From NCBI GenBank assembly GCA_001938485.1, contig MQRK01255104.1, positions 108,609 to 172,608 on the forward strand: a stretch of 64,000 nucleotides of DNA, given 5' to 3'. The first letter of the stretch is position 1. The number at the start of each line of letters is the position of its first letter. This DNA is from Girardia tigrina. Its lineage: Eukaryota. The notes under the pieces are model-generated. The model was not told the DNA's origin, did no database searches, and saw nothing but the letters and a program-made list of their open reading frames with translations. Below are positions 3,608 through 61,346 of this stretch, in pieces. The position numbers and the translations under genes were made by a program.

Positions 3608-3845
3608 TTAACCGAACCAGACGAGACCTCAGAAGGACTTACCAAAGGACCAATACAGTCATCCTACCCTCTATGGCACGGTCGCAGTGACAGAAATCCA
3701 TACTTCCAATCCGCTTGACGAACCGATGATCCCATGAAAAGTTATCGAACTTTAAAGTGTCAAAACAAAGTTAATGAAAAATAAAAAGATTAATTAAAAC
3801 TCACGATGATTCAAGTAGAATTCCAAAATCGACGATTATCCTATG

Positions 3846-4959
3846 TGTTGCAGTAGCAGCACAGTGGAAGCTTATATCATCTCCGCGGGTCATCAAGGAA
3901 AGGGAAGTGGGTTCGATAATGGTGTTCTCTAATTTATTATTATTATTGTTTTTATCTATATTATCGTTACTGTTAACTTTATCCTTATTGCTTTTATTTT
4001 TATTTTTATTATTTTTATTTTTGTTAATACTTTTACTATCATTTTTACTATTATTTTTACTGTTATTTTTATTATTATTTTTACATTTGCTGATATCTAT
4101 TTTAGAATATATATATATATATATATAACATACAGTTATCTGTTTTCGCAAGTCTTTGATTCCACCTCACAAATTCGCGTCCGTCGCACGTTATCCACAT
4201 TAAAAAAGGATTTTTCGAATTTATTTTCGTTTGGAATTCAGTAATCAAATCATTGCTTTGGTTGACCGTTTCTATTATTGCTGCTCGTAGCGGATCAAAA
4301 GATCCGACAAAAAATCGATTTCCCCTTGAAACATGAAAGAATCAGAAATATTCGACATTACAAATCGAACATTTGAAACGTTTTTCGTCGTCTGATGTTT
4401 GAATACATTCAGGATAGAACCGATGTTCACAATCCGACCATCCGGTCACTTCATATTCATTTATATGCTTGTTACATTTCTGGCATAACTTAGAACCTGC
4501 AGTTGAAGGTTTTTCGGAATTATTTTGATCGTTATTTACGTTTTCGTATCCGTCAATTTCCAATGAGTTATTATCAGTAATTTTACTTCTCTTAACAAAA
4601 CATTCATTTTTTATTGGAGTATCAAAATCGGTTGTACCCAGTCGCTTATACTTTTCTCCTACCATTATCAAATATTCAGAATTCAATTTCAGTATAAATT
4701 ATCTTTATTGATTTATTTTTAACTGTACAAATTTTTACCAACTTACGGAGATACCGTAATTGGTTTAAACAAACCAAACAAAACTTAATTATAAAGAATA
4801 AATATATATTTATATATATATATATATATATATATACATTTCCTCATATAAATATATATATTATTTAAATTTTTCTTTTCATTTTTTTTCTTGAATAAAT
4901 TTAATAAAAAATAAATTTTCCTTTAATGAAATTTAATTTAAAAAAACGAAACCCGAACA
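3846..4959. mobile_element. Solo-LTR-like element, copy 1 (TGTT...AACA, 5-bp TSD), carrying a Cys-rich ORF
   Basis: Starts TGTTGCAG at 3846 and ends CCGAACA at 4959. Perfect TSD CTATG at 3841-3845 and 4960-4964. Colinear and highly similar to 32593-33736. It splits an older repeat whose halves rejoin across it. Confidence 0.85.
4342..4686 (-). pseudogene. Degenerate PHD/RING-like Cys-rich finger ORF inside the solo-LTR-like element
   Basis: CQKC-x12-(W)SDCEHRFYPEC-x11-CSIC pattern at the C-terminus. The terminal TGA is TGG in copy 2, where the frame reads on into GSFDPLRAAIIETVNQSND. Confidence 0.5.
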
Positions 4960-6087
4960 CTATGAATCATTCTGAATCATCCTGATTCAGCAATCTGGTG
5001 ATTCGGAGAGGGCAGCCTGCATTCTGGAAAATTTTTAAAGGGCGCGCACAACTTGGTGTTGAAATCATTTAGACACCAACACTGCACATCAGTCAAATAG
5101 ATTCCGCTGCATGGTTAATTTAATATTAATATTATTATCTATAATATTATTTCGAAAACACATCGTTTATTAATCTCAGGGAGAAACCCTGGAATAGTTG
5201 AGGAGAACTGCATTCAAGTCGACACTTACGAGATCTGTTACGAAGTTGAAAACGCGAGCTTATCCGTTAGGAATCAATCGAGGAAGTGATAAACCAACAC
5301 CGCAACACTCAGATGAAATGTACATTTTAATTTTTCATGAATTCATTTTAATTTTCTACGAATAACAAATAATTTTGATTTATCTCTTGTAGTCTTCAAT
5401 ATATTTTACAGGTAATTTCGATTTATTTAATTCCTTTTATAATCATAATTTGTTAGATTCTATTCAACTTTGCTAATGCTTAATTTCGAGATGTTTAATA
5501 TCAATTTTGGTAGAACAGTTCAGTGATCCTGTCACTGCAGCCGCCAGTAATTTCATTGTTTCGGTTAATTATTAGAAGTGCTAGCGAGTGCCCATCGATC
5601 ATCATAATATGCTTCAGGTCAAATACGCGGTTGATAATCCCAATGGACCGTTTGAAAATGAGGAATCGTATCCCGACCAATCATAGAAAAAGGGCGCATC
5701 GATGGGTTGTTGCATTATGGACAGCCTCTATTGGAAACGTAAAGTGATCGATAAGAGGATAAGGAGAAAGAGTAGGAATCACTTCATCTCGTTCAGCCGA
5801 GAAGGACGAGGGTGAAATCCGGTTGTGAGTAGACGTATCCAATTCCGTATTTGTAAATAAAAATTGTGAATACCATCCAAAGTATTCCTGCAATTTAATA
5901 GAGACACATCTGATTCATGTCGACAAAACTGAGACGTAAATAGTGATCAGACGCTGATCGATTAATTGTTGTGAATATATCTGAGCTTAGTCAATTAATA
6001 ATTAAGGCGGGCAAAAGTCAATAAAGTCAAAATGGAATCATGCAGCAGAAATAGTGAGAGAATCACAAAGGCACACATAAATATATA

Positions 6088-8714: not shown

Positions 8715-9115
8715 TTATTTCCAATTATCTGGGAGTTTCTGATCGACTGATGTAACTCCACGGCGAACAACACCATTTTGTTTCATGAAATTGGAAACCC
8801 AACAGCAAGATTCTTTGAAGTCATTAATTTTCATCCGAATTGCATGTGCTTTTGCTTCACGCTTAATAACCTTTCCAGACACTGGATGACCTTCTTTACG
8901 CTGTGCAGCAATGCAGGTCTTCATATGTACATCTATTGCTGGGTATTTTGCTGATCTTTTTCGTTTGACAACATTTCCTTCCTTCTTTGTCGCAGCTTCC
9001 ATTTTTAATTGTTGTTTTTTCCATCGCCTAATTTGACTAATGTTTACTCTAAAGTGCTCAGCAGCTTTTGCTAGAGAATTATCGACTGCAAACTTGACAG
9101 CTTCGAGCTTGTTTA
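8715..9115 (-). pseudogene. pogo-family transposase N-terminal fragment (Brinker-like HTH + CENP-B HTH), truncated before the DDE domain
   Basis: Translates KLEAVKFAVDNSLAKAAEHFRV...IRRWKKQ...KYPAID...RKEGHPVSGKVIK.EA...FK.S..WV.NFMK.NG..RR..TS..QKLP, typical of POGK-like pogo transposases. Confidence 0.85.
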
Positions 9116-11601
9116 GTAACTAGGCTTAGTAACTAGTAGAGGCTTATAACGAGATTTCAGGTAATCTTGTTAATTCGATTTTTATATTTTGTTTGAATAT
9201 TCCGTTTATTGCGAAAAACATTTTTTTCTATATAATTCAATTTAGGAACTTGTTATTCATTGTCATTCTCTACAACAATTAACTTTTGTACTTTATAATA
9301 AATCTTTGCATAAATCTTTTAATAAAACTACCGTAAAATTTATTTTATTTCTTACATAAATTAAATTTTACATTAAATTTCTTAAAATCTTATCTTAACA
9401 TATCTATAACAATATTTTACTGAATGTAATTGTTTAATTCTTAATTTGATCAGCTTGTAAATTCAAATTTTTTTTGAACTCAACAACGCTAACAATACAG
9501 GCAATAATCGGGAACCTAAAGCAATCATATATAACGATTTTAAAGAATATGAAAGATGATCAGTTATATTACTAGGCGTAAGTCTTGTTTTATTCTTACT
9601 TCTTGCAATATATGAAATGAGACAAATATACCATAAATATAAAAAGAAACATTTGACTTTGAACTTGTATTGTATATCCTTGTGAAAGTACGTAAATACC
9701 ACACAGGTATAAAAATCAAATAGAATTGCTGTATGCGCATAGAGATTTTAGATCTCATCTATATTTGTTTATTTTTTTATATTTCAACTTCTAATTATGT
9801 TGAAATTGACAAAGTTTATTTAAGTTTTATATTTTCAGATATCAAAATGAAACCAACATCGGAACAATCAAAACAATTATTTGAAAGTAGGAAAAAGAAA
9901 TATCTCATGTCTTCTTACACATATATGAAACCAAAAGAGCCAGTTGAGCCTGTACAGACGATTTACGCTTCGTCAGTAACAGTAGATACATGGCTAAAGG
10001 AGAGATTACGAGAGCCTAGACCAGTTATACCCAACGCCTTATTCAGTCTGTCACCATAAGCACTTTGAAATAGATTGCAGATGTATCTATCAATGTATCA
10101 AGGAAAGAAAATGAAAAATCTGTGGTAATTAACTTGATCGATGACACAGACGAAAGTCTTGAATTAAATGCTCCTGTTGAACAAGGGTTAACTCCACATA
10201 TGCCACCGATTTCTACCCTAATGTAGTTCCTAGAAAATTAGCAGAATGTGAAGGGCTATCGAGCCTTCTTTAATAGAAATTTCAAGGTTTCTAACCATAA
10301 TCCGGTTTTCTTTGTTCACTTACGCACTCCCCACATATATAGGCCAGGGGATAGATGCTCCACGAATCCTTCGTACTATCCAACCATAAACAAATATCAA
10401 AATTCATCGGCAACTGACACACAGCAAGTCTAGAGAATCTGAAGTTCGTCTGGACGCGCACCAATCTTCAAGTCGCAAGCGGGATACAATCCGTTCCGAA
10501 AGGTGAGAGCTTTGCCCGACGATTGAAGCGATGTACGCAGCAGCTGCCAAGAAATTTATCAGAAAATACAAAACAACAATGACTCTTATATCAGCTTTGA
10601 TTACTTGATATTTGATCTTTTGTTTGAAATTTCATTTATTCATAATTGACTATTGGAGTTCAATAATCTCATTAGTATAGATGTCTTTTTTATTGTTTTA
10701 ATTTATGCTTACAGTATTATCTCGTGTGTACATATTCTCTTTTAATTAACATATTTTTGTAATGCTATTGTTTATTGTTTTTTTAATTTTAAAGGTTCAA
10801 ATTTTCCCCAAGACAGCCTTTAAATTTTTAATTTTAAAAATCGAATTTGTAAAGAAAATTTTCAAGTTTTGATTTGTAAAAGCATCGAATTTCCTCAAGA
10901 AAATTTTAAATTTTTAAAGGGCATATTCTAGTGTCATTTGAGAGGAATAACTTCATTAGAGAAAAAGAAGACGTGATAAATAATTTAATGAATTTGAAAG
11001 AATGTATTAACAGAAAAAGTTATTATCAAAATTGTCTTACATTGATTTTGAGTATCTGTATTCTCGTCTTATAAATAAGGTGACCATACGTCCTATATGT
11101 TTCGTGACGGGTTTTAATTTAAAGAAAAAAATACAAATAAATCGAATCCGAAATCAAATCGACATTCGATGGAATTCTATCGACCACAGACCGAATCATT
11201 GAATATCAGTTCATATGACAGTTGAAACGCATCATAGACCAATACTCAACTTATCGACTGAAAATATTTTAAATAGATTTTTCATCGCCTTTTATCAGAA
11301 CTATTATATCAAAGAAACATTTTTCATGGAATCCATCAAATTTAGTGTACTATTTATTCACATTTCATTCAAGTCGGAAACAAAATGGAAACTCAAAACT
11401 TCAATTTTGATTCATCATTCGTACTGGTTAAAAAACAATCATTCATAATTTAATGTAACATTATAATTAATTCGATTGAATTTATAATTATTAAATCAAA
11501 TGTTTATTGATTTATAATTTTTATTTCGGGTTTTAATTAATTATTTGCGGAATTGTTGTTAATTTTTATATTTGTTTATTCGAATTCATTTTAATTTATG
11601 T

Positions 11602-16381: not shown

Positions 16382-18477
16382 CAGTCTACTCTCGTTAAAA
16401 CGCCACCCTCGTCATTCGCCGGTATTCAGTCTGGTCCCAATCAACATCTATATGTTTAACTCGATATAACGCTCTTCCCTCGCTGTTTGCCTTACACCGG
16501 TTAATTTCTTGTTCCAAATAGGAAGAATCTCTCGTTAAAGCGTCACAACGTAGTCCTTAAACTTGCATCATAAAATCTTGCATCATCTCTTAATAAATAA
16601 TTATATAAATAACTGCGTTAATACAATGTTTTCAAGTGTGTAAATCTTTAATAAAGCAATTATTTACAGACTAATACATTAAATAATTTTCTTTTAGTTT
16701 ATATTTATCTTGTAACAAATACTTTAGAATACAAATACCTTTTAACAAATACATCATGAATTCTCAACAGCGTAAACGTGAATCAATTTTAATTAAAAAA
16801 AGGAGATATGTCAATTCGCAAAGAATAATCCTATGATGCTGAAAATGAAATTAGAGTGATTCTTACTTCTACGAACATCTATTCCAGATATTCTTGCTCA
16901 TACAGAAAATTATGTACATCAAACTGTTTGTTTCTCTAAACGGCAGAGTTAGAAAATTTAGTGAGTTGTTGAACTGCTTCACTCAAATGTGTGCCAATAA
17001 CATTATTATTACTGATGATATGTTAAGAAAGAAAGCAAAACATTTTGGGGAATTATTGAATGTTCTAAAAGATTTTGTGTACAATAGTGGATGATTGCAA
17101 AGATTTAAAGAAAGATTTTGTATTACGTGAAAACGGATCTCAGGAGTGGGCTCATCGGCTTCCGCGGCAATTGTTGACGAAGAACTTTAAAACTTTAACA
17201 ATATTTCGATGAGCTACGGATATGTTCCAGCCGAAATTTACAATGCAGATGAAACTGGATTAGTTTTTCAGGTGCTTACTGATAGAACGCTTGCAAATAA
17301 AAAAGAAACCTGCCACGGTGTCAAAAAGCTAATACAACGAATCACTGTACTGTTATGCTGCAATTTTACCGGAACTGACAAAAGGCGATCACTGATAATT
17401 GGAAAATCAACGAAATCCCGATGGTTCAAGAACTTTAATGTTAACTTCTACTGCACTTACAAATCTAACAGCAAACCATGAATAACCTCGCACATCTTTC
17501 AAGAATGGTTAATGTAGTTCAAAAAGCAGCTCATTTTAAAAGGACGACGTATCATTTTGTTGTTGGATAACACCACTTCACATCGCGTACAAAATTCTGG
17601 CCTCAGAAACATAAAAATCCACTTCTTTCCATCAAATATGACAGCTAATCTGCAACCACAAGATATTGGCATAATCAAAAGTTTCAAGTCTCATTATCTC
17701 AAGCTGCAACTCAAAAAAATAGTGGAATTAGCTGATGCTTATCTACCTACAGAATTATGTCTGGACTATGCAATGCGCTATTGTAACATGGCCAGGGATT
17801 CTGTGACTGTAGATACAGTTTACAAAGGCTGGAATAATACTGCTATTCGCTTCGCTTCAAGTGCCACAGTCAATTCTATTGAATACGGAAATCTGTTTAG
17901 TCGCATTAAAGAAATGTTTACTATTTCATTTGAGAACTTGATGGCTGAAAGTGAGTTTCAACGGATTGGTGATTCACAGGAAACAGAAGTCGAACTTACC
18001 GACGACAATTTTCTGGTGTCTAATGCTACAGTGGAAGAAGAACTTATTGAGAATGAATGAACTTACTGCAGATAATACATGACTACAATCTTTAAAGGAA
18101 GTTAGAACAGCTGCTGAGACTGTTTTATTTTTTTCTAGAGCACTCTATGAGTGCTACATCTGAAGATGTCGACTTATCCACCAAATTGATAAGCCGTATT
18201 TATGCAATAAGTGAGAAATATAAAATGCAAGTTGTCATCACGGACTTCTTCAAGAAAATGTAGTGGCTTCTTTAATAAATAAAATATTTACTAATGGTTT
18301 TGGATTCATTACACCTATTGATCATATATTGAATAAAAAATGAAAAATATTGTGTTTTTGTACATAGTTAATGTTTGTTCAAATTTTTATCTTAGGCTAA
18401 CTACAGACAACGCCACTCTCGCTTTAAGCCGCTTTTTTGACAGGTCGCGAGAGCGGCTTTATAACGAGAGTAGACAG
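16382..18477 (+). mobile_element. Full-length Tigger/pogo DNA transposon (2.1 kb), inactive
   Basis: TIRs CAGTCTACTCTCGTTA / TAACGAGAGTAGACAG (1 mismatch), with TA TSDs at 16380-81 and 18478-79. Confidence 0.93.
16756..18263 (+). pseudogene. Tigger-like DDE_1 transposase pseudogene
   Basis: CENP-B HTH (ITDDMLRKKAKHF...SG*LQRFK). DDD-region motifs IYNADETGL, RITVLLCCN..GTDK, LLDN...H and FFPSN.TA.LQP.D.GII. C-terminal ITDFFKKM*. Several stops and frameshifts. Confidence 0.92.
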
Positions 18478-29809: not shown

Positions 29810-30180
29810 ATGTATCGAAAAAAATTCCGTTTCATGTATTATTCCAATAATTTTTATCGCTCTGCGATCAATAATTCCCAATTGGAAGCCACAAAACCGG
29901 AGTCAGATAATCTGATCAAACATCTCATTTGGAATCAATTTCTCAATCAATCTGTTTCCAATTGTCAATAATTTTGAGAAATGTAATTCGAAGAACTAAC
30001 TCTTCAAATGTAATCATTGCGTCAAATCTTACAAAAAATAAAAATATCTCAATGAATATATGAAAGATTATTTATCATCGGACAAAACAAATATTTGTCA
30101 TTTTTTTATAATCTATATGTATAAACTATATATTTGTGTTAAATTGTGAGTATTACTGGTAACCTTTTTATAGCACTACC
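29810..30180 (+). pseudogene. Degenerate C2H2 zinc-finger gene fragment, inverted paralog of 54210-54780
   Basis: Translates FRFMYYSNNFYRSAINNSQLEATKPESDNLIKHLIWNQFLNQ...LFKCNHCVKSYKK*KYLNE. It is colinear with the reverse complement of ~54210-54590, including 3' non-coding sequence. Confidence 0.75.
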
Positions 30181-32315: not shown

Positions 32316-32592
32316 TACAATCCTAATTATAATTATAATCAAAAATTGCTAATAGCAATATTTAAAAATTTAAATATTCAAATCGATAGACAATAATAAT
32401 AAATTCATTACTGTCTACAATATTATTTTCTTTCGACTGAATTCTAGTTTCTACAAACAATGATTGAGAATTTTACTTATTTACATGGATCCCCTGGATC
32501 GAGATAATATTACATGCCGAATTCCATTACCGTCTATGATAATAAAGACAATTACTATCATTCATTTTGATTTACTCTTGAACAATCACTAC

Positions 32593-33531
32593 TGTTGCAG
32601 TAGCAGCGCAGTTGAAGCTTATATCATCTATTGTTGCAGTAGCAGCGCAGTGGAAGCTTATATCATCTCCGCTAGTCATCAAGGAGAGGGAAGTGGGTTC
32701 GATAATGATGTTCTCTAATTTATTATTATTATTTTTTTATCTCTATTATCGTTACTGTTAATTTTATCCTTAACGCTTTTATTTTTATTTTTATTATTTT
32801 TATTTTCGTTAATTCTTTTACTATTATTTTTACTGTTATCTTTACGGTTATTTTTATTATCATTTTTACATTTGCTGATATTTATTTGAGGATATATATA
32901 TATATATATATATAACATACAGTTATCTGTTCTCGCAAGTCTCTGATTCCGCCTCGCAAATGCGCGTCCGTCGCACGTTATCCACGTTAAAAATGGATTT
33001 TTCGAATTTATTTTCGTTTGGAATTCAGTAATAAAATCATTGCTTTGGTTGACCGTTTCTATTATTGCTGCTCGTAGCGGATCAAAAGATCCGATAAATA
33101 ATCGATTCCCCTTTGAAACTTGAAAGAACCAGAAATATTCGACATTACAAATCGAACATCTGAAACGTTTTTCGTCGCCTGATGTTCGAATACATTCAGG
33201 ACAGAACCGAGGTTCACAATCCGACAATCCGGTCACTTCATATTCGTTTATATGCTTGTTACATTTCTGGAATCTGCAGTTGAAGTTTTCTCGGAATTAT
33301 TTTGAATGTTATTTACGTTTTCGTATCCGTCAATTTCCAATGAGTTATTATCAGTAATTAATAATTTAAAAGTTGTACCCAGTCGCTCATACTTTTCTCC
33401 CATCATTATCAAAATATTATAGAATTCAATTTCAATATAATTAACTTTATTGATTTATATAACATGCAATTCTGCCAATTACGGAGTTACCGTAATTGGT
33501 TTAAACAAAAACCAACAAGCTTAATTTTAGA

Positions 33532-33567
<36 letters not shown>

Positions 33568-33736
33568 NNNNNNNNNNNNNNNNNNNNNNNNNNNNNNNNN
33601 NNNNNNNNNNNNNNNNNTATATATATATATATATATATCAATTAAATTTTTTTTCTCATTTTTTCTTAAATAAATTTAATGATAAAAAATAAAATTTTTC
33701 TTTAATGAAATTTAATTTAAAAACGAAAACCGAACA
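32593..33736. mobile_element. Solo-LTR-like element, copy 2, with a 39-bp terminal tandem duplication
   Basis: TGTTGCAG at 32593 (repeated at 32632) to CCGAACA at 33736. Perfect TSD ACTAC at 32588-32592 and 33737-33741. Minus-strand ORF 32715-33236 is homologous to the copy-1 Cys-rich ORF. Confidence 0.85.
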
Positions 33737-33741
33737 ACTAC

Positions 33742-39389: not shown

Positions 39390-42300
39390 TGGCGCGAGTT
39401 TTTTTGATAATTGAATAATTGAATCACCGTGGTAGTGGATTGGTAGTGATGAACAGTGAACAAACGAGCAGATTTAGCAGTAAGAAATATAACGGCGTCG
39501 AAAGAAGCCTCTGTCAGTCAAAAATGATTATGATAATGATTGTCCAAAACGATATAATAATCTCGATAACAAATTTACTGATAACAAAGACGATGACGAT
39601 GGAACCGTTTATGATAACGACAATAGAGGCAAATCAAACGAATGCGGTCCTATTCAGAACAGTCGATTCGATCGTGATCGCAGCGATTATCGAAAAGGGC
39701 GTGATGATTTCAATGAAAAACGACCGTCTTCGAATCGATACCGCAATGATTCCTACGATCGAAATAAAAACCGAGCTGATAAACGACGCGATCGACAAAT
39801 TCGATGAGAGATGGACGATATACAAATTTATAGTATTCAATTATCCCTCCCCGCAACCCGAACTTGTCCAATTACCTCTTTTATTATTTCATTTCGATTG
39901 ATCATGTCATAATTTTCTGAGATGTATTTCGTTACTTTCTCTGAGCCCGCGTGTGACAATAGCGTATGTATTTGTATGATCATTTCTTCTCTTTTTGACT
40001 TCGGTATTCAAATCTTTCCCCTGTTTGTTCTTATTATGCCGTCTTCAATCGTAAGCTTTCTTTCTTTACCTGAATTTGGGTCTCTTTTAATTTCTTCTAT
40101 TTCTTGTTGATATTTGAATATCTGCAATGTGTCCAGCACGTTGATTCTTCGAGTCTTTGTCTTCATCATTTTAGCATCTTCATGAGCCATCAAGCATTGC
40201 GTACATGTAACACATGTATTCCGAGACAACATATCTGCATTGGAATGATCTGTTACTTTTCTGTATTCTAAGTGCATGTCCAAGCTTGATAAATAAATTA
40301 TAAATGTCTGAAATTGCACCGTTATCAATTTTTTTGTTCTAACCATAAACGTAATTGCCTTATGATATGTTCTCAAAAGGAATCGCTTTCCGTATAAATA
40401 ATGATTAAAATGTTGACAGAAGTAATACATTGCCAACAGCTCATTCCGAGTAATGCAGTGTCCTTTTTCATTATTATTCATGGAGTGTGAACCATATGCA
40501 ATAACTCTCTCACGTGTGTCCTTGTCTCTTTGGGAAAATATTACTCTAATTGTGTCGAAACTGGTATCAATGTCTAGTATAAATTCTTTCTGGAAGTCTG
40601 GGAATCCTAGAATCGGTGGAGTTGTTAAAGCCTCTTTCATCTCTGCAAATACTATATCACATGCGTCTGTCCATAACAATTTCTTCTTCTTCAATCCACT
40701 TCAACATTGTTTTTGTTGCGGAGGAGCTGATCACAGAAGAATTGATTGTGTATTAAGAAATAAATGCATAATATGCGGAAAAGAAGGTCATTCATTTAAA
40801 AATTGTTTTATTATTCAGAACCGACAAACCAAAGTTCTAGCGAGAATATTGTGCGTCCATGAAGAACAACAAGAATATATAACAGACATTCATGACAAAA
40901 TTACCCATGACGTTGAAGATTATGAAGATGAAAAAAATGCTTTCCATTCTCCCGTATCTATCTCGTCGGTGGGGTTGTCGGGTCAATAGATAAAAATATC
41001 AGAAGAGATAGAGAGAGTGGAGGGTCTGTACAAAGAAGAAATAAGATGTTTCAGAAGTCAGATGTTCGACCATGGAGTGTTGTTATTTGCAATGATGTTC
41101 TAGTAAAAATGTTATGGGATTCAGGAGCCTCGGTTACAGTAATGAATAGAAAAACATGGAACTTAATGGGAGCATCATAATTTATAAAGTCATTAGTCAA
41201 ATTAGTCGGTGCTTTCTCAACATTTCATGAAACATGTCTGGGAAAGATACAAATACGCGTTCAATAGAAGGGGAAATCGGTGAAAACGGATATTATTGTA
41301 GTTAACACTATTTTGCCAGGATTTATCGGAGGAGTAGATATCATGAGATTGTTTCAAATATATTTGGCAGAAATCAACATCTTTAGAACACCTGCAGTAT
41401 TAGAAGATAAAGATAAAAGAATTTCAATGATATTAGAAATTTTAGGAAAAGAAAAATCCGCAAAATTTCGGAAACTAAGAGAGAAATATCAGAATATTTT
41501 TCTGGTTTCAAAATTTGATTTAGGTCTTACTAAATTGGTAAAGCATGGAATCGAAACGAACGGATCCCCGATTTCCCAAAATCCCGCAGACGGCGGATGC
41601 ACCTTAAAGACAAGATTGATGAGTTAATTAATAATTTATTATATTCAGGTATCATTAGTCCGTGTAAAAATCCATGGAATTCACCTTTGGTAGTTGTATC
41701 CAAGCAAGATGGCTCTATAAGAATGTGTCTGGATTTTCGGAAATTAAATGAAATTACATAAAAATATTCATTTTCAGTCCCGGATATAAACTTGCTTTTG
41801 GGTTCGCTAAATGGATCAGTAATTTTTTTCTATTGATTTAGGCGAAGCTTATTACCAAGTTGAACTTCTCGAGGACGCGAAGTTGAAGACATCATTCAGT
41901 ACTAAATGGGACAGTTCTGTTTCAACCGATTACCATTTGGATTATGTACCGCAGCAGCAACGTTTTAAAGTTTATTTCATAAGATTTTTGGAAATTTACT
42001 ATATAAAGGTGTTATAATTTACCTGGATGATATTTTGGTATATTCTAAAAATGAAGTGGATAACGCAAAACGATTGGAAGAAGTTTTTTCTCGCATACAA
42101 AATTCTGGATTGAAAGCAAACCAAGAAAAGTGCATTTCTCGAACAGAAAATTTAGTTTTCTTGGTCATGTAATCAGTCCCAAAGGAATCGAAACAAACGA
42201 TGACAAGATTTCCAAGGTCAAAGACACACCTATTCCAAACTGTGTTACACAAGTTCTTTCGGTTTTCGGATTATGTAATTATTATCGCAGGTTTATAATT

Positions 42301-44291
42301 GCCGCTCCTTTGTTCTGACGAAAAATGTGAATAATAAATTCGAATGGTCCAGCGCGTGCAATCAAAGCTTTAAAATGCTGAAAGAAAAATTATCATCTTC
42401 CCCGATTCTGGCATTTCCTGATTCGTCTAAAAATATGACTTTGGACACGGATGCAAGTTTCGGCGCTATTGGAGCAGTTTTGAGCCAAATAAATGAAAAT
42501 GAAACTGAAGAAGTTAGAGCATACGGGTCTCGAATACTTACTGATCACGAAAAAGGTTATTGTGTGACCAGAAAAGAGCTGTTGGCTCTCCATGAGTTCA
42601 TAATGTATTTCAAACATTATTTACTTGGAAAAAAGTTTGTGGCTAGAACAGATGATAAGGATTTGACGTATATGATAAATACGCACAAACAAATAAGCCC
42701 ACAGTTCCAGATATGGTTTGCTAATCTATCAGGTTTTAATTTTTATTTAGAATATCGAAAAGGCAGTGAACATGAAAATGCCGACGGGTTGTCAAGAATA
42801 TCAGAAAGTTTGTATTTTCAATGTTTGTCAAAACACGAAGACGCAAAAAGTGAAAAACCAAGAACCATATATCTAAATATCATGGATAACCTGAGGTCAG
42901 ATGATGAGATGAAGAAAATTCAAAATGGACATCCCATAATATTTTCAAATTTTAAACTGGTTGAAGGGAAATAATTTAGATGTCAGTGCGAATGTGAAGA
43001 AAAGTTGTTATTTCAAAGAATTAACAAACTAGGAGCTTGATGGAGATATCGTGATGTATCGTAAGAATGACCAGAAATTGATCATAATACCAGAATCATA
43101 TTCATTAAAATTGATTTCGTATATACATGAAGAATTATGCCATTTGGGAAGTAAGAAATTAATCGATTATATCAGTGACATATATTTCTGGCCAAACATG
43201 GTAAGATCAATTGAACACGAGATCAAGAAATGTATTATTTGCTCCAAGCGAAAAATATACACTAGGAAAACGAAAGAGGATTTTATTCCCCGAGAAAAAT
43301 TCGACCTTTAGAACAAGTAGGGATGGATATCGCATATTTTGCTGGCGAGAATGTCAAACACAAGTATCTTCTAGTATTAATTTAGTAAATTAGTAAGCCA
43401 TGGTGCGTCATGAAGAAAAAACAGTGGCTCAAAATATTTTGTATCATTGGATTTACAAGTTTGGAAAGCCTAGATCGTTTCTGTCTGATAGAGGCAAAGT
43501 TTTTGAAGGAAAATGCTTGCCAGTAAATTCGGTATTGAGCAAGAGTTTTCATCACCTTATCAGCATCAGTCAAATGGAATAGCAGAGAAAAAAATAAGAA
43601 CAGTCTGAGATATGCTTGTTACTTCTAAAATTGGAGAAAATTCTAATAAACAGTGGACTAGCTGGATACAATAGATCGAATTCTACATTAATGCAACTTA
43701 TCAAAGTTCAACTGGACGATCACCGTTTGAAATTATTTATGGGCGCAAATTATTACTACATGGACAATTCCAGGACTCCGAGATAGACCACAGTGGTAAT
43801 ATTGCTAAAGTAGAATTTTCAAGTAAGAAGACTGCAGACAAGTTGCGGTTGTTGGATAGATCCAAGAGGGGAGAGAGAGTTTTTCATGTTGGAGAAGAAG
43901 TTATGATAAAAATCGAGCCTCATAAGACAAAGAAAAACGGGTTCAGATACGAGGGACATTATAAAATTTTAGAATTTTTAAGTCCACGTCAGGTATTAAT
44001 AGATTTCCTGGGTCACTCAAAACCGAGAAGAATAGATTGGCTTAAGAAGAAGCAAGGATATTAAAAAGGAGGAAATTAGAATGTGTTCAATATGTTCTGC
44101 AATTGCGTAACAAGAATTAGCGATTACGCACAGAAAGGTTGTGTAATTGAAATTCACTCAACCCATTGGCGGGTCAGATCTTATTGCGTTGTTGGATATA
44201 TCTTGTTATATATATATCTTGTATTTTTGTATTTAAATGTAGTTTTATTTAACCGTTGTCTTTTAGTTCTTTTACTATCACGAACCCAACA
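39390..44291 (+). mobile_element. Degenerate near-full-length Ty3/Gypsy LTR retrotransposon (gag-PR-RT-RH-IN, PPT, 3' LTR)
   Basis: TGGCGC PBS-like site at ~39390. Two CCHC knuckles at 40705-40810. Protease LWDSGAS at 41112. RT motifs SPWNSP, MCLDFRKLN and YLDD (42020). RNase H LDTDAS...ELLA...NADGLSR. Integrase HEELCH...CIIC and SDRG...NG..E. PPT aaaaaggaggaaa at ~44063, then an LTR-like tail ending CCCAACA at 44291. Many stops and frameshifts. No matching 5' LTR seen. Confidence 0.93.
39842..40694 (-). mobile_element. Inverted pol fragment (RNase H to integrase zinc finger) of a related Gypsy element
   Basis: ORF 40008-40694 contains PILGFPDF..EFILDID.S, VIAYGS, ELLA and NADMLSR. After a stop the frame continues IHTLLSHAG (integrase HHCC start). 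Confidence 0.9.
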
Positions 44292-48074: not shown

Positions 48075-49314
48075 TTAGGTTGGTCGAAAAATAATGGCGG
48101 TTTTGGGACACAAACGTCAAAGACGTGCAAATTCACAGAAACAAAAGTTTATTAATCAAAGTATGAACCGTTGGCATCAATACATTTTGCCAACGAGAAA
48201 CAAGTTGTTTTATTCCATCAGCATAAAATGCATCGGTTCTCGAAGCGACGAATTCTTGGAAGGCATTTTGAGCATCATTTTGGTTTTTGAAAATATTTTC
48301 ACGTAAGAAGTTATACAAATGCCTGAAAAAGTAGAAGTTCGTTGGCGAGAGGTCTGGTGAATATGGTAGATGAGGCAGGGTTTCATAGCCCAACTCATTA
48401 AGCTTTTGAAGAGTCACTTTTGAAATATGAGGTCTAGCGTTATCATGAAGAAGGATGGNNNNNNNNNNNNNNNNNNNNNNNNNNNNNNNNNNNNNNNNNN
48501 NNNNNNNNNNNNNNNNNNNNNNNNNNNNNNNNNNNNNNNNNNNNNNNNNNNNNNNNNNNNNNNNNNNNNNNNNNNNNNNNNNNNNNNNNNNNNNNNNNNN
48601 NNNNNNNNNNNNNNNNNNNNNNNNNNNNNNNNNNNNNNNNNNNNNNNNNNNNNNNNNNNNNNNNNNNNNNNNNNNNNNNNNNNNNNNNNNNNNNNNAAAT
48701 GGATCGTTTTTATTGCGAAGATGATTGGCAGAACAAATTTCATAACGTCGGTTCTTTTGATTTTCATTCAAATCATGTGGAACCCATTTATCAAGTTTCT
48801 TGATTTTTCCAAGTTATTTTAAATGATCCAGGACTATTGATAGACTAATGCCCAACCCATCTGCAAGTTCTCTGATTGTTGTACGTGGATCTGTTTCTAT
48901 CATTGTGCTCAAATTGTCGTTGTTCACAGAAACTGGACGACCACGACCTTCTTCATCTTCAAGGTTTTCATCTCCATCAGAAAATTTTCGGAACCATCGT
49001 TGCACTGTGCGCTCAGAAGCTGTTCCTTTGCAAAACGCTTTATTGATATTGTGAGCTGTTTCTGCTGCTTTACGACCCATTTTAAATTTGTACAAGAAAA
49101 TTGCTCGAATTTTAATTTTTTTCCATTATTAATTTAGCACCGTAAATATTCTAAAAAATAACAGCAATATGTTAATAATGGCTATAGGAATATACAGCTA
49201 AGCATAAGATTTCAAATAATATCTAACACTAATGCATATAAACTTATATACATATCAAAGTAGATAAACAAAGTATTAAGCTCAAAAACCGCCATTATTT
49301 TTCGACCAACCTAA
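48075..49314 (-). mobile_element. Full-length mariner (cecropia/Hsmar1-like TIRs), inactive; contains an assembly gap
   Basis: Perfect 30-bp TIRs TTAGGTTGGTCGAAAAATAATGGCGGTTTT, with TA TSDs at 48073-74 and 49315-16. Motifs WVPHDL, HDNARPH and YSPDLSPTN (third D is N). In-frame stop at ~48814 and a frameshift near the ATG (49126). Gap 48459-48696. Confidence 0.95.
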
Positions 49315-54329: not shown

Positions 54330-54780
54330 TATCTTTCAAGTGATCATTGAGATATTTTAATTATTTTTACGATTTACCACAATGATTACATTTGAAGAGT
54401 ATTTTTTTCGAATTACGCTTATCAAAATTATTGACATAAAATTGGAACTGGTTGATTGAGCAAGTCTTTCCAAATGAAAGGTTTAATCGATTTATCTGAT
54501 TCCAGTTTTGAGGCTTCCATTTGGGCATTATTGATCACAGAGCGATAACAATTATTGAAATGATACTTAAAATGGAATAACGTATTAAATCGTTTGTTAC
54601 ACAAGGGACAAGAGTATTTCATTTTATTCGGTGAATGAAGTTCGCAAGAATATTCCTTCATTTTCCAATGTGACTTGTAATGATTTTTCAGGATCGATTT
54701 CAATCGGAAAAACTTGTGACACGTGTAACATAGAAATGGCTTCTGCTGAGTGTTGATACGAATTAATGCCTCGGTCGTTA
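54330..54780 (-). pseudogene. C2H2 zinc-finger gene remnant (two recognisable fingers plus a broken third)
   Basis: KPFLCYTCHKFFRLKSILKNHYKSH and YSCPLCNKRFNTLFHFKYHFNNC, then after a stop LFKCNHCGKS*K*LKYLNDH. Confidence 0.75.
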
Positions 54781-54851
54781 AGGAAAAAAATAATAATCCA
54801 TTATTGATTCAAATACATTGGATCAAATTTCAATTTTTCTTTAAATAAATA

Positions 54852-60077: not shown

Positions 60078-61346
60078 TTAGGGTGAACCAAAAGTCTTTT
60101 CGTACTTTCTGCGTCTTTTTGTTCAATTGTTTCTTATTACCAAATAAAGATATTTTATATACATGTGTTATATGTTTTTATAGCTCTTGAACTGCTCTAT
60201 CACAATATATATTAAAACTTCTAATTAGTCGTTAATATAATTTTTATGGAAAATTTTGAAATTCGTGTTCTTTTACACCATTACTGGAAACAGGGCTTAA
60301 ACGCAACTGCAACAACAAAGAAGATATGCGAAGTTGAAAGCGATAATGTGGTCTCAAATCGTACTGCGCAAAATTGGTTCAAAAGGTTCAATGAAGGCGA
60401 CATTGACCTGGGAGACAATGCACGTTCAGACCGACCTATCACCGTAAATTCCGGAGCAATCCGTGAAGCCGTCGATAGAAATCCGTCAGTAAGTACTCGC
60501 AGATTGTTGGTCAAACTCGATATTCCTCAAACATCAATTGTACGACACCTTCACGCTCTTGGCAAGGTCAATAGACGATGTCGAGAAGTGCCTCATGAAT
60601 TGACACAAATTCAAGCCAAAAAGCGTTTCGAAACTTGTCAAAAATTGCTTGAAAATCCGCGCGATGACCGTTTCATCCGTCGAATTGTAACTTGCAATGA
60701 AAAGTGGGTTTACTTCAGTAATCCAGACCAACAACATCAATGGTTGGACCTAGGCCAAATGGCGAAACCGGTAGCGAAACGAGATCGTTTCTCAAGGAAG
60801 GCACTTTTGTGTGTTTGGTGGAATTTCGAAGGCATGATTCACTTCGAGCTGGTTCCAAATGGTCGTACCATCGACGCTGACCTTTACTGCGTCCAACTTG
60901 ATCGAATGTATGCGGCACTTGGCGAGAAATACCCCGCTTTGATCAATCGAAAGTGAGTACTTCTACAACAGGACAATGCAAAACCGCACACCGCCAAACA
61001 AACAAATGAAAAAATCAAAAATCTCGACACCTTGGAACTTCTTCCGCACCCAGCGTATAGTCCGAACCTTGCGCCATCCGACTATCACTTTATCCGCTCT
61101 ATGGCACACTTTCTTCGTGGTCGCAGCTTCAATAATCTGGCTGAGGTCGAAAACAGGTGTCACCAGTTCTTCGCTTCTAAGAGTAGGGATTGGTACCGCA
61201 GCGGGATCGCACAACTTGCCCATAGATGGGTTCAAGCTATTGATTCAAATGGCCTTTACTTTGAAACTTAAATGTTTTTTATTTGTTGTAAAATTATGTT
61301 TAAATTTTTAAAAAAAATATACGAAAAGACTTTTGGTTTACCCTAA
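60078..61346 (+). mobile_element. Full-length mariner (1269 bp) with DD35D-spaced transposase
   Basis: 27-bp TIRs TTAGGGT(G/A)AACCAAAAGTCTTTTCGTA (26/27), with TA TSDs at 60076-77 and 61347-48. Confidence 0.96.
60246..61271 (+). pseudogene. Mariner transposase, 341 codons in one frame with a single nonsense codon
   Basis: ORFs 60246-60956 and 61032-61271 are in the same frame, separated only by TGA at 60954. Motifs EVPHEL, VTCNEKW (first D is N), QDNAKPH and YSPNLAPSDY. Confidence 0.93.

What the first reader, a model, noticed from the sequence alone, without database searches (positions are those of the whole stretch)
3841..4964. 1.1-kb solo-LTR-like element that carries a PHD/RING-like ORF, inserted twice independently
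Seen: two colinear copies (3846-4959 and 32593-33736) each begin TGTT, end AACA, and have a different perfect 5-bp TSD (CTATG; ACTAC). They are therefore two separate integrase-type insertions, not the two LTRs of one element and not a segmental duplication. There are no real TIRs beyond 4 bp. Established: TG...CA ends with a 5-bp TSD are the signature of solo LTRs (Bel-Pao, Copia, some Gypsy). Unusual: the unit contains a Cys-rich finger ORF on the minus strand. Copy 1 stops at TGA where copy 2 has TGG and reads on for ~70 complex residues, so the ancestral ORF was probably longer. Inference: either an LTR that captured or encodes a chromatin-reader-like protein, or a small Ginger-like element that moves a PHD gene.
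Basis: partly seen in the sequence, partly recalled or inferred. Interest (0 to 1): 0.7.

Follow-up and report, generated by a model that had tools for sequence, protein, structure and literature searches.

The report
Coding LTR of a Bel-Pao retrotransposon
The two copies are leftover end repeats (solo LTRs) of a Bel-Pao jumping gene; unusually, the end repeat holds a RING-finger reading frame that in related copies runs on into the capsid gene and is likely made as its front part, and sister versions carry a piece of a host stem-cell Tudor gene in the same frame.

Summary
Observation confirmed. Both copies are solo LTRs of a Bel-Pao retrotransposon, not a Ginger element. Elsewhere in the genome the repeat abuts a tRNA-iMet primer site (17 exact junctions), a polypurine tract, and gag, protease, RT and integrase-tail domains. 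19 of 22 solo copies have an exact 5-bp TSD. The finger is RING-HC, not PHD, and lies on the LTR's sense strand. Its frame starts about 820 nt before the LTR end. In natural copies it runs through the LTR end and primer site into a ubiquitin-fold domain ending RGG, then Gag. Variants shared between lineages never create a stop in this frame (0 of 153, against 29 of 455 private changes), but RING amino-acid constraint is not significant. A sister LTR type (29 exact junction matches) has 300-380 nt of the host tud-1 gene spliced in frame behind the RING; the window copies do not. No copy has the whole frame intact, and translation is not shown. The scan noted host-gene capture in this genome before, but not this architecture.

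The parts
3846..4959 (-). Solo LTR copy 1 of a Bel-Pao family (window type, 'A'); sense strand is minus
3841..3845 (.). 5-bp target-site duplication CTATG, left
4960..4964 (.). 5-bp target-site duplication CTATG, right
4342..4665 (-). Copy 1 ORF from the conserved ATG through the RING finger to a premature stop (107 aa)
4345..4488 (-). RING-HC (C3HC4) finger; one ligand substituted in this copy
4126..4341 (-). Type-A middle segment of unknown source; its distal part resembles DUF5738-type LTRs by eye. Sister LTRs carry host tud-1 sequence here instead
3846..4125 (-). (TA)n plus Asn/Lys-rich coding stretch to the LTR end; out of register with the finger in this copy
3862..3871 (-). Box complementary to host tRNA-iMet positions 13-22 (10 nt here, 13 nt in most copies); likely second part of a bipartite primer site
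32593..33736 (-). Solo LTR copy 2 (type A), with a 39-bp duplicated 3' end and an assembly gap
32588..32592 (.). 5-bp target-site duplication ACTAC, left
33737..33741 (.). 5-bp target-site duplication ACTAC, right
32715..33296 (-). Copy 2 open frame (193 aa): RING, middle segment, Asn/Lys-rich part; cut off from its ATG (33406) by a frameshift
32645..32657 (-). 13-nt box complementary to tRNA-iMet positions 10-22

Best explanation
Both copies are solo LTRs of a Bel-Pao retrotransposon family, and the RING frame inside the LTR runs in register through the LTR end and primer site into a ubiquitin-fold domain and Gag, so it is likely translated as the front of the Gag polyprotein. Shown: LTR identity, RING-HC type, frame continuity in natural copies, the ubiquitin fold (predicted model) with an RGG end before Gag, and exchange of the LTR's middle segment, including an in-frame piece of host tud-1 in a sister type. 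Inferred: transcription starts in the first ~290 nt of the LTR, so the ORF lies in R/U5. Inferred: reverse transcriptase template switches while copying U5 brought in host mRNA pieces, and only in-frame ones survived because Gag lies downstream. Inferred: a host deubiquitinase cuts after RGG and frees Gag from the RING-cargo-UBL leader. The window copies are decayed solo products of LTR-LTR recombination and cannot make this protein.
For: PBS junctions 17, control 0; PBS pairs with a host tRNA-iMet gene; PPT before the LTR start. DUF1759, Asp protease, DUF5641, RVT_1 and Peptidase_A17. L135 is open for 528 aa from before the RING through LTR end, PBS and UBL into Gag; L060 is open for 650 aa. 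At PBS junctions the two other frames close within 30 codons in 12 of 17 loci. LTR-end-to-UBL distances of 267, 309, 471, 528, 576 and 795 nt are all multiples of 3; 13 of 26 loci are in register and 8 have no stop; the 309 class has no Met for 89 codons. ATG-to-RING spacing is in frame in 38 of 48, over classes of 39, 96, 144, 177 and 180 nt. Shared variants give 0 stops in 153 against 29 in 455 private, p=2.7e-4; control frames give 31 in 326. LTRs with other cargo (L063, L213) are also open to the LTR end in the same register. UBL model pLDDT 86, ubiquitin TM 0.72; GG end in 23 of 28; UBL shared omega 0.21-0.28.
Against: No copy has an intact ATG-RING-PBS-UBL-Gag-Pol frame. Only 2 of 18 gap-free LTRs are open from ATG to LTR end. 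In type A only 5 of 14 gap-free copies are in register from finger to LTR end, no better than chance, and a (TA)n run sits in the frame. 13 of 26 LTR-end-to-UBL distances are out of register. RING amino-acid constraint is not significant (shared omega 0.75-0.89, p=0.08-0.14), and the type-A middle and LTR 3' end have omega near or above 1. A conserved Met just before the UBL could start Gag on its own. The shared/private test ignores phylogeny, and loci were picked partly by protein search. No transcription start, translation or cleavage data.
Confidence: 0.7

Rival explanations
1. Same solo LTRs, but the RING and cargo are passengers. Captured coding pieces stay open by inheritance, and Gag starts at the Met before the UBL.
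For: Omega near 1 over most of the LTR ORF; many copies out of register; tud-1 5' pieces are also scattered outside this family, so capture of an abundant mRNA may be generic.
Against: No shared stop among 153 lineage variants, while control frames have 31 of 326; different cargoes and many indel classes keep one register across the PBS.
Confidence: 0.2
2. The RING is joined to Gag by splicing, or is a separate short upstream gene; the (TA)n and AT-rich stretch is an intron.
For: A GTATGT donor-like motif precedes the (TA)n run, and the run varies in length between copies.
Against: The stretch is open in register in 8 of 23 gap-free copies. No GT-AG joint appears in laid contigs, and one contig (RNA is a guess) crosses it at nearly genomic length.
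Confidence: 0.07
3. Small Ginger-like DNA transposon that moves a PHD gene.
For: TGT...ACA ends; some Ginger1 transposases carry a PHD (PMC2836005, passages).
Against: Ginger has 40-270 bp TIRs and mostly 4-bp TSDs. Here there are 4-bp ends, 5-bp TSDs, PBS, PPT and Bel-Pao gag-pol, and the finger is RING.
Confidence: 0.01

Closest known systems
Bel-Pao LTR retrotransposons (PMC3118150, passages; Achilles, PMC4580426, passages)
   Same: LTRs with TG...CA ends of about 1.1 kb (review range 0.2-1.2 kb), PBS, PPT, gag DUF1759, protease, RT, Peptidase_A17, DUF5641; solo-LTR formation.
   Different: About 270-300 codons of the Gag frame lie inside the LTR, with a RING-HC finger, swappable cargo and a ubiquitin-fold domain before Gag; Gag has CCCH fingers. 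Not seen in the passages read. N-terminal PHD fingers in some Bel-Pao Gags are recalled, not checked.
Yeast Ty1 (PMC4974528, passages)
   Same: Bipartite tRNA-iMet primer site that lies inside the GAG ORF, so Gag starts upstream of the PBS.
   Different: Ty1's PBS is at nt 94-104 of the RNA, so only a short stretch precedes it. Here a folded domain and hundreds of codons do, and the second tRNA box is 5' of the PBS, inside the LTR. Different superfamily.
TART-A/nxf2 and piwi/aub captures by Drosophila telomeric retrotransposons (PMC7785250, abstract; PMC13534243, abstract and first part of section 8)
   Same: A retrotransposon lineage carries a ~85-92% identical fragment of a host gene tied to germ-granule/PIWI biology.
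   Different: Those are non-LTR elements with 140-235 bp fragments acting through piRNAs. Here it is an LTR element, with 300-380 nt in frame in a Gag-linked ORF. piRNA targeting is untested, and only the sister LTR type has it.
LTR-mediated retrocopies (PMC5131818, abstract)
   Same: Host mRNA piece fused into an LTR element, sense and in frame, with short similar sequence at the joints.
   Different: There the piece lies between discontinuous LTR parts in single loci. Here it sits inside the LTR and was amplified as a subfamily.
Ubiquitin-fusion precursors and pestivirus ubiquitin insertions (recalled, no call)
   Same: Ubiquitin fold ending in RGG directly before a functional protein.
   Different: About 20% identity to ubiquitin; cleavage not shown.

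Membership tests
Bel-Pao LTR retrotransposon | Direct terminal repeats with TG...CA ends flanking an internal region | tested here: met
   L059 and L061: LTR-PBS-gag-protease...PPT-LTR start; L178 has two LTR ends 99% alike over 210 nt
Bel-Pao LTR retrotransposon | PBS complementary to a host tRNA 3' end, and a PPT | tested here: met
Bel-Pao LTR retrotransposon | Short TSD (5 bp typical; recalled) | tested here: met
   19 of 22 exact, 3 with one mismatch
Bel-Pao LTR retrotransposon | Pao-type gag-pol domains (DUF1759, protease, RT, Peptidase_A17, DUF5641) | tested here: met
   found in separate broken copies, protease below its Pfam cut-off
Bel-Pao LTR retrotransposon | Integrase DDE core and RT-tree placement in a named clade | not tested
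   No integrase core fetched; no tree built
Ginger1/Ginger2 DNA transposon | TIRs of 40-270 bp | tested here: not met
   4-bp ends only (definition)
Ginger1/Ginger2 DNA transposon | 4-bp TSD (5 bp in TDD-4/5) and no RT or gag | tested here: not met
   5-bp TSD with linked gag and RT
RING-HC (C3HC4) finger | C-x2-C...C-x-H-x2-C-x2-C...C-x2-C ligand set and profile match | tested here: met
   PF00097 22.3 bits over cut-off 21, profile 1-40/40, in L135; all 8 ligands in 52 of 87 copies; window copy 1 alone only E=0.11
RING-HC (C3HC4) finger | E3 ligase activity | not testable with these tools
   Needs an assay
PHD finger | C4HC3 ligand order | tested here: not met
   His is ligand 4, not 5; no PHD among 19 families at E<=5
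Ubiquitin-like domain | Beta-grasp ubiquitin fold with C-terminal GG | tested here: met
   sequence searches alone found no ubiquitin
Ubiquitin-like domain | Cleavage after GG | not testable with these tools
   Needs an assay
TART-type anti-silencing gene capture | TE carries a fragment of a host silencing-related gene | tested here: met
   Sister LTR type only: 85-92% nt identity to host tud-1 in 13 of 13 loci compared; window copies lack it
TART-type anti-silencing gene capture | TE-derived antisense piRNAs lower the host gene | not testable with these tools
   No small-RNA reads available

The most novel reading that the evidence does not exclude
This family uses its LTR as a protein-coding capture cassette. 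A RING E3 ligase plus a swappable host-derived segment is made in front of Gag and released at a ubiquitin-like RGG site. The tud-1 piece, with its GRGRG motif, aims the ligase or acts as a decoy at chromatoid bodies, or turns the element's piRNAs against a host silencing gene: an LTR-encoded anti-silencing module in planarian stem cells.
Probability: 0.25. Interest if true: 0.85.

Novelty: new variant of a known kind. Interest (0 to 1): 0.64.

Why it matters
LTRs are treated as non-coding control DNA, and annotation looks for Gag after the PBS. A family whose Gag frame starts about 820 nt inside the LTR, with a RING finger and a ubiquitin-like release site, would show a route for retrotransposons to gain accessory proteins: anything copied into U5 is doubled into both LTRs and fused to Gag. 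The tud-1 capture extends the Drosophila pattern of retrotransposons taking pieces of silencing-related genes to an LTR element in a (likely) planarian, where it can be tested by RNAi and small-RNA sequencing. Each solo LTR also leaves a promoter-ATG-RING unit that could fuse to neighbouring DNA.

Tried and rejected
Source of the RING and type-A middle: not found. The own-genome search gave 125 matches of 132 scored, ranked like family copies and not fetched. A longer-protein search gave none of 149 candidates. The Atlas gave only generic RING clusters, several viral. Full-length relatives with UBL plus Gag: none among 2428 candidates; the 50%-cluster search gave 6 hits. DUF5738: no paper and only two close relatives. 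The first UBL fold, with 5 sequences, failed (pLDDT 45). The Pizza-protein hits for the UBL are repeat artefacts. RNA data are contigs only, mostly guessed RNA, so they show no strand, start or level. They do cover the finger, and one contig from an RNA library bridges LTR end and PBS. An intron in the AT-rich stretch was not supported. Segmental duplication is rejected (unrelated flanks, different TSDs). Ten literature searches listed no paper on a RING- or UBL-led Bel-Pao Gag or a coding LTR of this kind; subscription papers, Repbase and supplements were not seen. The Spoltud-1 paper was not held. No complex prediction was run.

Full report
Observation. They align at 88% mean column identity with unrelated flanks. 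The genome (1.43 Gb) has 985 candidate places, of which 40 were scored. Of 30 LTRs with both ends among fetched loci, 8 have a PBS or PPT flank (one, L086, only by a loose G-run rule). Of the other 22, 19 have an exact 5-bp TSD and 3 have one mismatch. A public contig joins window 3828 to 4963 with 15 other letters between, which fits a relative of the flanking DNA without the insertion.

Identity. Two copies shared a flank that reads, on the minus strand, LTR end + 2 nt + TGGTAGCAGAG. An exact search found 17 such junctions, control 0. The site pairs over 14 nt with the 3' end of a tRNA-Met(CAT) gene of this genome, and a second 13-nt box inside the LTR end pairs with tRNA positions 10-22 (the query was a recalled motif). 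A G-run precedes the LTR start. Internal ORFs hit DUF1759, aspartyl protease (below cut-off), DUF5641, RVT_1 and Peptidase_A17. L059 and L061 run LTR-PBS-gag-protease...PPT-LTR. So this is a Bel-Pao element, the minus strand is sense, and the window copies are solo LTRs. Ginger needs 40-270 bp TIRs and mostly 4-bp TSDs (PMC2836005, passages), which are absent.

The finger. A protein search gave 150 matches of 150 scored. The pattern is C-x2-C-x14-C-x-H-x2-C-x2-C-x11-C-x2-C. All eight ligands are present in 52 of 87 readable copies, and each position in 78-84 of 87. An intact natural copy passes the PF00097 cut-off over the whole profile, with no PHD family listed. The best PDB sequence hits are RING E3s but weak (E about 0.07). 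Each window copy has one ligand substituted. Copy 1 stops after the finger, and copy 2 is frameshifted before it. 82 of 84 exact junction matches read on.

The frame continues into Gag. The ATG lies about 820 nt before the LTR end. L135 is open for 528 aa from a contig edge before the RING through the LTR end, PBS and the next domain into the start of Gag, where the copy breaks off. L060 is open for 650 aa from the last cysteine pair. At PBS junctions the two other frames close within 30 codons in 12 of 17 loci; the other five share a deletion that moves the downstream frame. LTR-end-to-UBL distances are in register in 13 of 26 loci, in six length classes, 8 without a stop; the 309-nt class has no Met for 89 codons. 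ATG-to-RING spacing is in frame in 38 of 48. Related LTRs with no RING, one with DUF5738 (119 matches), are also open to the LTR end in the same register. Counting codon variants per column, those shared by 3 or more copies include 0 stops in 153, against 29 in 455 singletons (p=2.7e-4; at 5 or more, 0 of 70, p=0.023). The control frames have 31 shared stops in 326.

Against it. RING shared omega is 0.75-0.89 (p=0.08-0.14 against private), and the type-A middle and LTR 3' end are near or above 1. Only 5 of 14 gap-free type-A copies are in register from finger to LTR end (3 fully open), against 5 of 7 of the sister type. Only 2 of 18 gap-free LTRs are open from ATG to LTR end. The test ignores phylogeny. 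No whole intact element was seen in this fragmented assembly.

Ubiquitin-like domain. The domain before Gag has 122 matches of 144 scored. Folded from 28 natural copies only, it gives pLDDT 86. Ubiquitin is the top Foldseek match (TM 0.72), and ISG15/UBL domains lead the wide search (Z 9.1, rmsd 2.0, 68 aligned). 23 of 28 rows end in GG; one row was cut before that position. It is under purifying selection (shared omega 0.21-0.28). Sequence searches did not detect it. Cleavage after GG is inferred from what I recall of ubiquitin precursors.

Host capture in a sister type. The 50%-cluster search with L135 hit P0009, an RRM plus Tudor protein named Tudor domain containing 1 of Schmidtea polychroa. 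That protein localises to chromatoid bodies and is needed for neoblasts (PMC3552358, passages); a direct piRNA role is my inference. The own genome has an orthologue covering most of residues 48-769 without stops, in three matches with assembly gaps. All 13 sister-type loci compared match it at 85-92% over 301-377 nt, sense and in frame, right behind the RING; the window copies do not. The junction has 29 exact matches. The segment exists in the S. polychroa protein, so the direction is host to LTR. It lies within one exon, so an RNA route is not proven. Other tud-1 5' pieces occur outside this family, and an earlier unchecked note (e1-9523125) reports Tudor scraps in another repeat, so capture of an abundant mRNA may be generic.

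Comparison. Ty1 has its bipartite PBS inside GAG (PMC4974528, passages), so a Gag start upstream of the PBS is known, but over a short stretch. Capture of silencing-related genes is known for Drosophila telomeric LINEs (PMC7785250, abstract; PMC13534243, abstract and first part of section 8). LTR-mediated mRNA capture by template switching is known (PMC5131818, abstract; lead from e1-9162187). Passages of PMC3118150, PMC4580426 and PMC3601003 showed no coding LTR. Ten searches listed no report of this architecture; Repbase, subscription papers and supplements were not seen.

Verdict. Real; Bel-Pao solo LTRs (about 0.97). The LTR frame is likely the front of Gag (0.7). An anti-silencing role is possible (0.25). 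New variant of a known kind; interest 0.64.

Noticed in passing
L063:2459-3283, L213:1456-2304 (G000): Related LTRs without a RING carry other cargo (one DUF5738, one unassigned) and stay open to the LTR end in the same register; DUF5738 has 119 matches in the genome.
   Followed up: partly
L226:2452-4730 (G000:C251368): Host RRM-Tudor gene orthologous to S. polychroa tud-1; many 71-93% identical 5' fragments lie elsewhere, mostly without marks of this LTR family.
   Followed up: partly
L057:2345-4000: The Gag of this family has CCCH-type fingers where CCHC knuckles are usual (usual state recalled).
   Followed up: no
window 32593-32670; L059: The 39-bp duplication of the LTR 3' end in copy 2 also occurs in a PBS-linked LTR and keeps the frame.
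   Followed up: partly
L021 / L031-L032 (G000:C245027): One LTR has a PPT on one side and a PBS on the other, suggesting a tandem or recombined element; a 155-aa RING/TRAF-like ORF lies 4 kb away.
   Followed up: no
window 40008-40700 (-), 42279-44064 (+): Gypsy-like RT/RNase H and integrase-like fragments, judged by eye from translations.
   Followed up: no
window 48133-48813 (-), 60225-61311 (+), 8715-9119 (-), 17518-18060 (+): Mariner- and Tigger/pogo-like transposase fragments, judged by eye.
   Followed up: no
window 54428-54808 (-), with inverted copy near 29824-30139: C2H2-finger ORF in a region that has an 81-85% inverted repeat 24 kb away.
   Followed up: no
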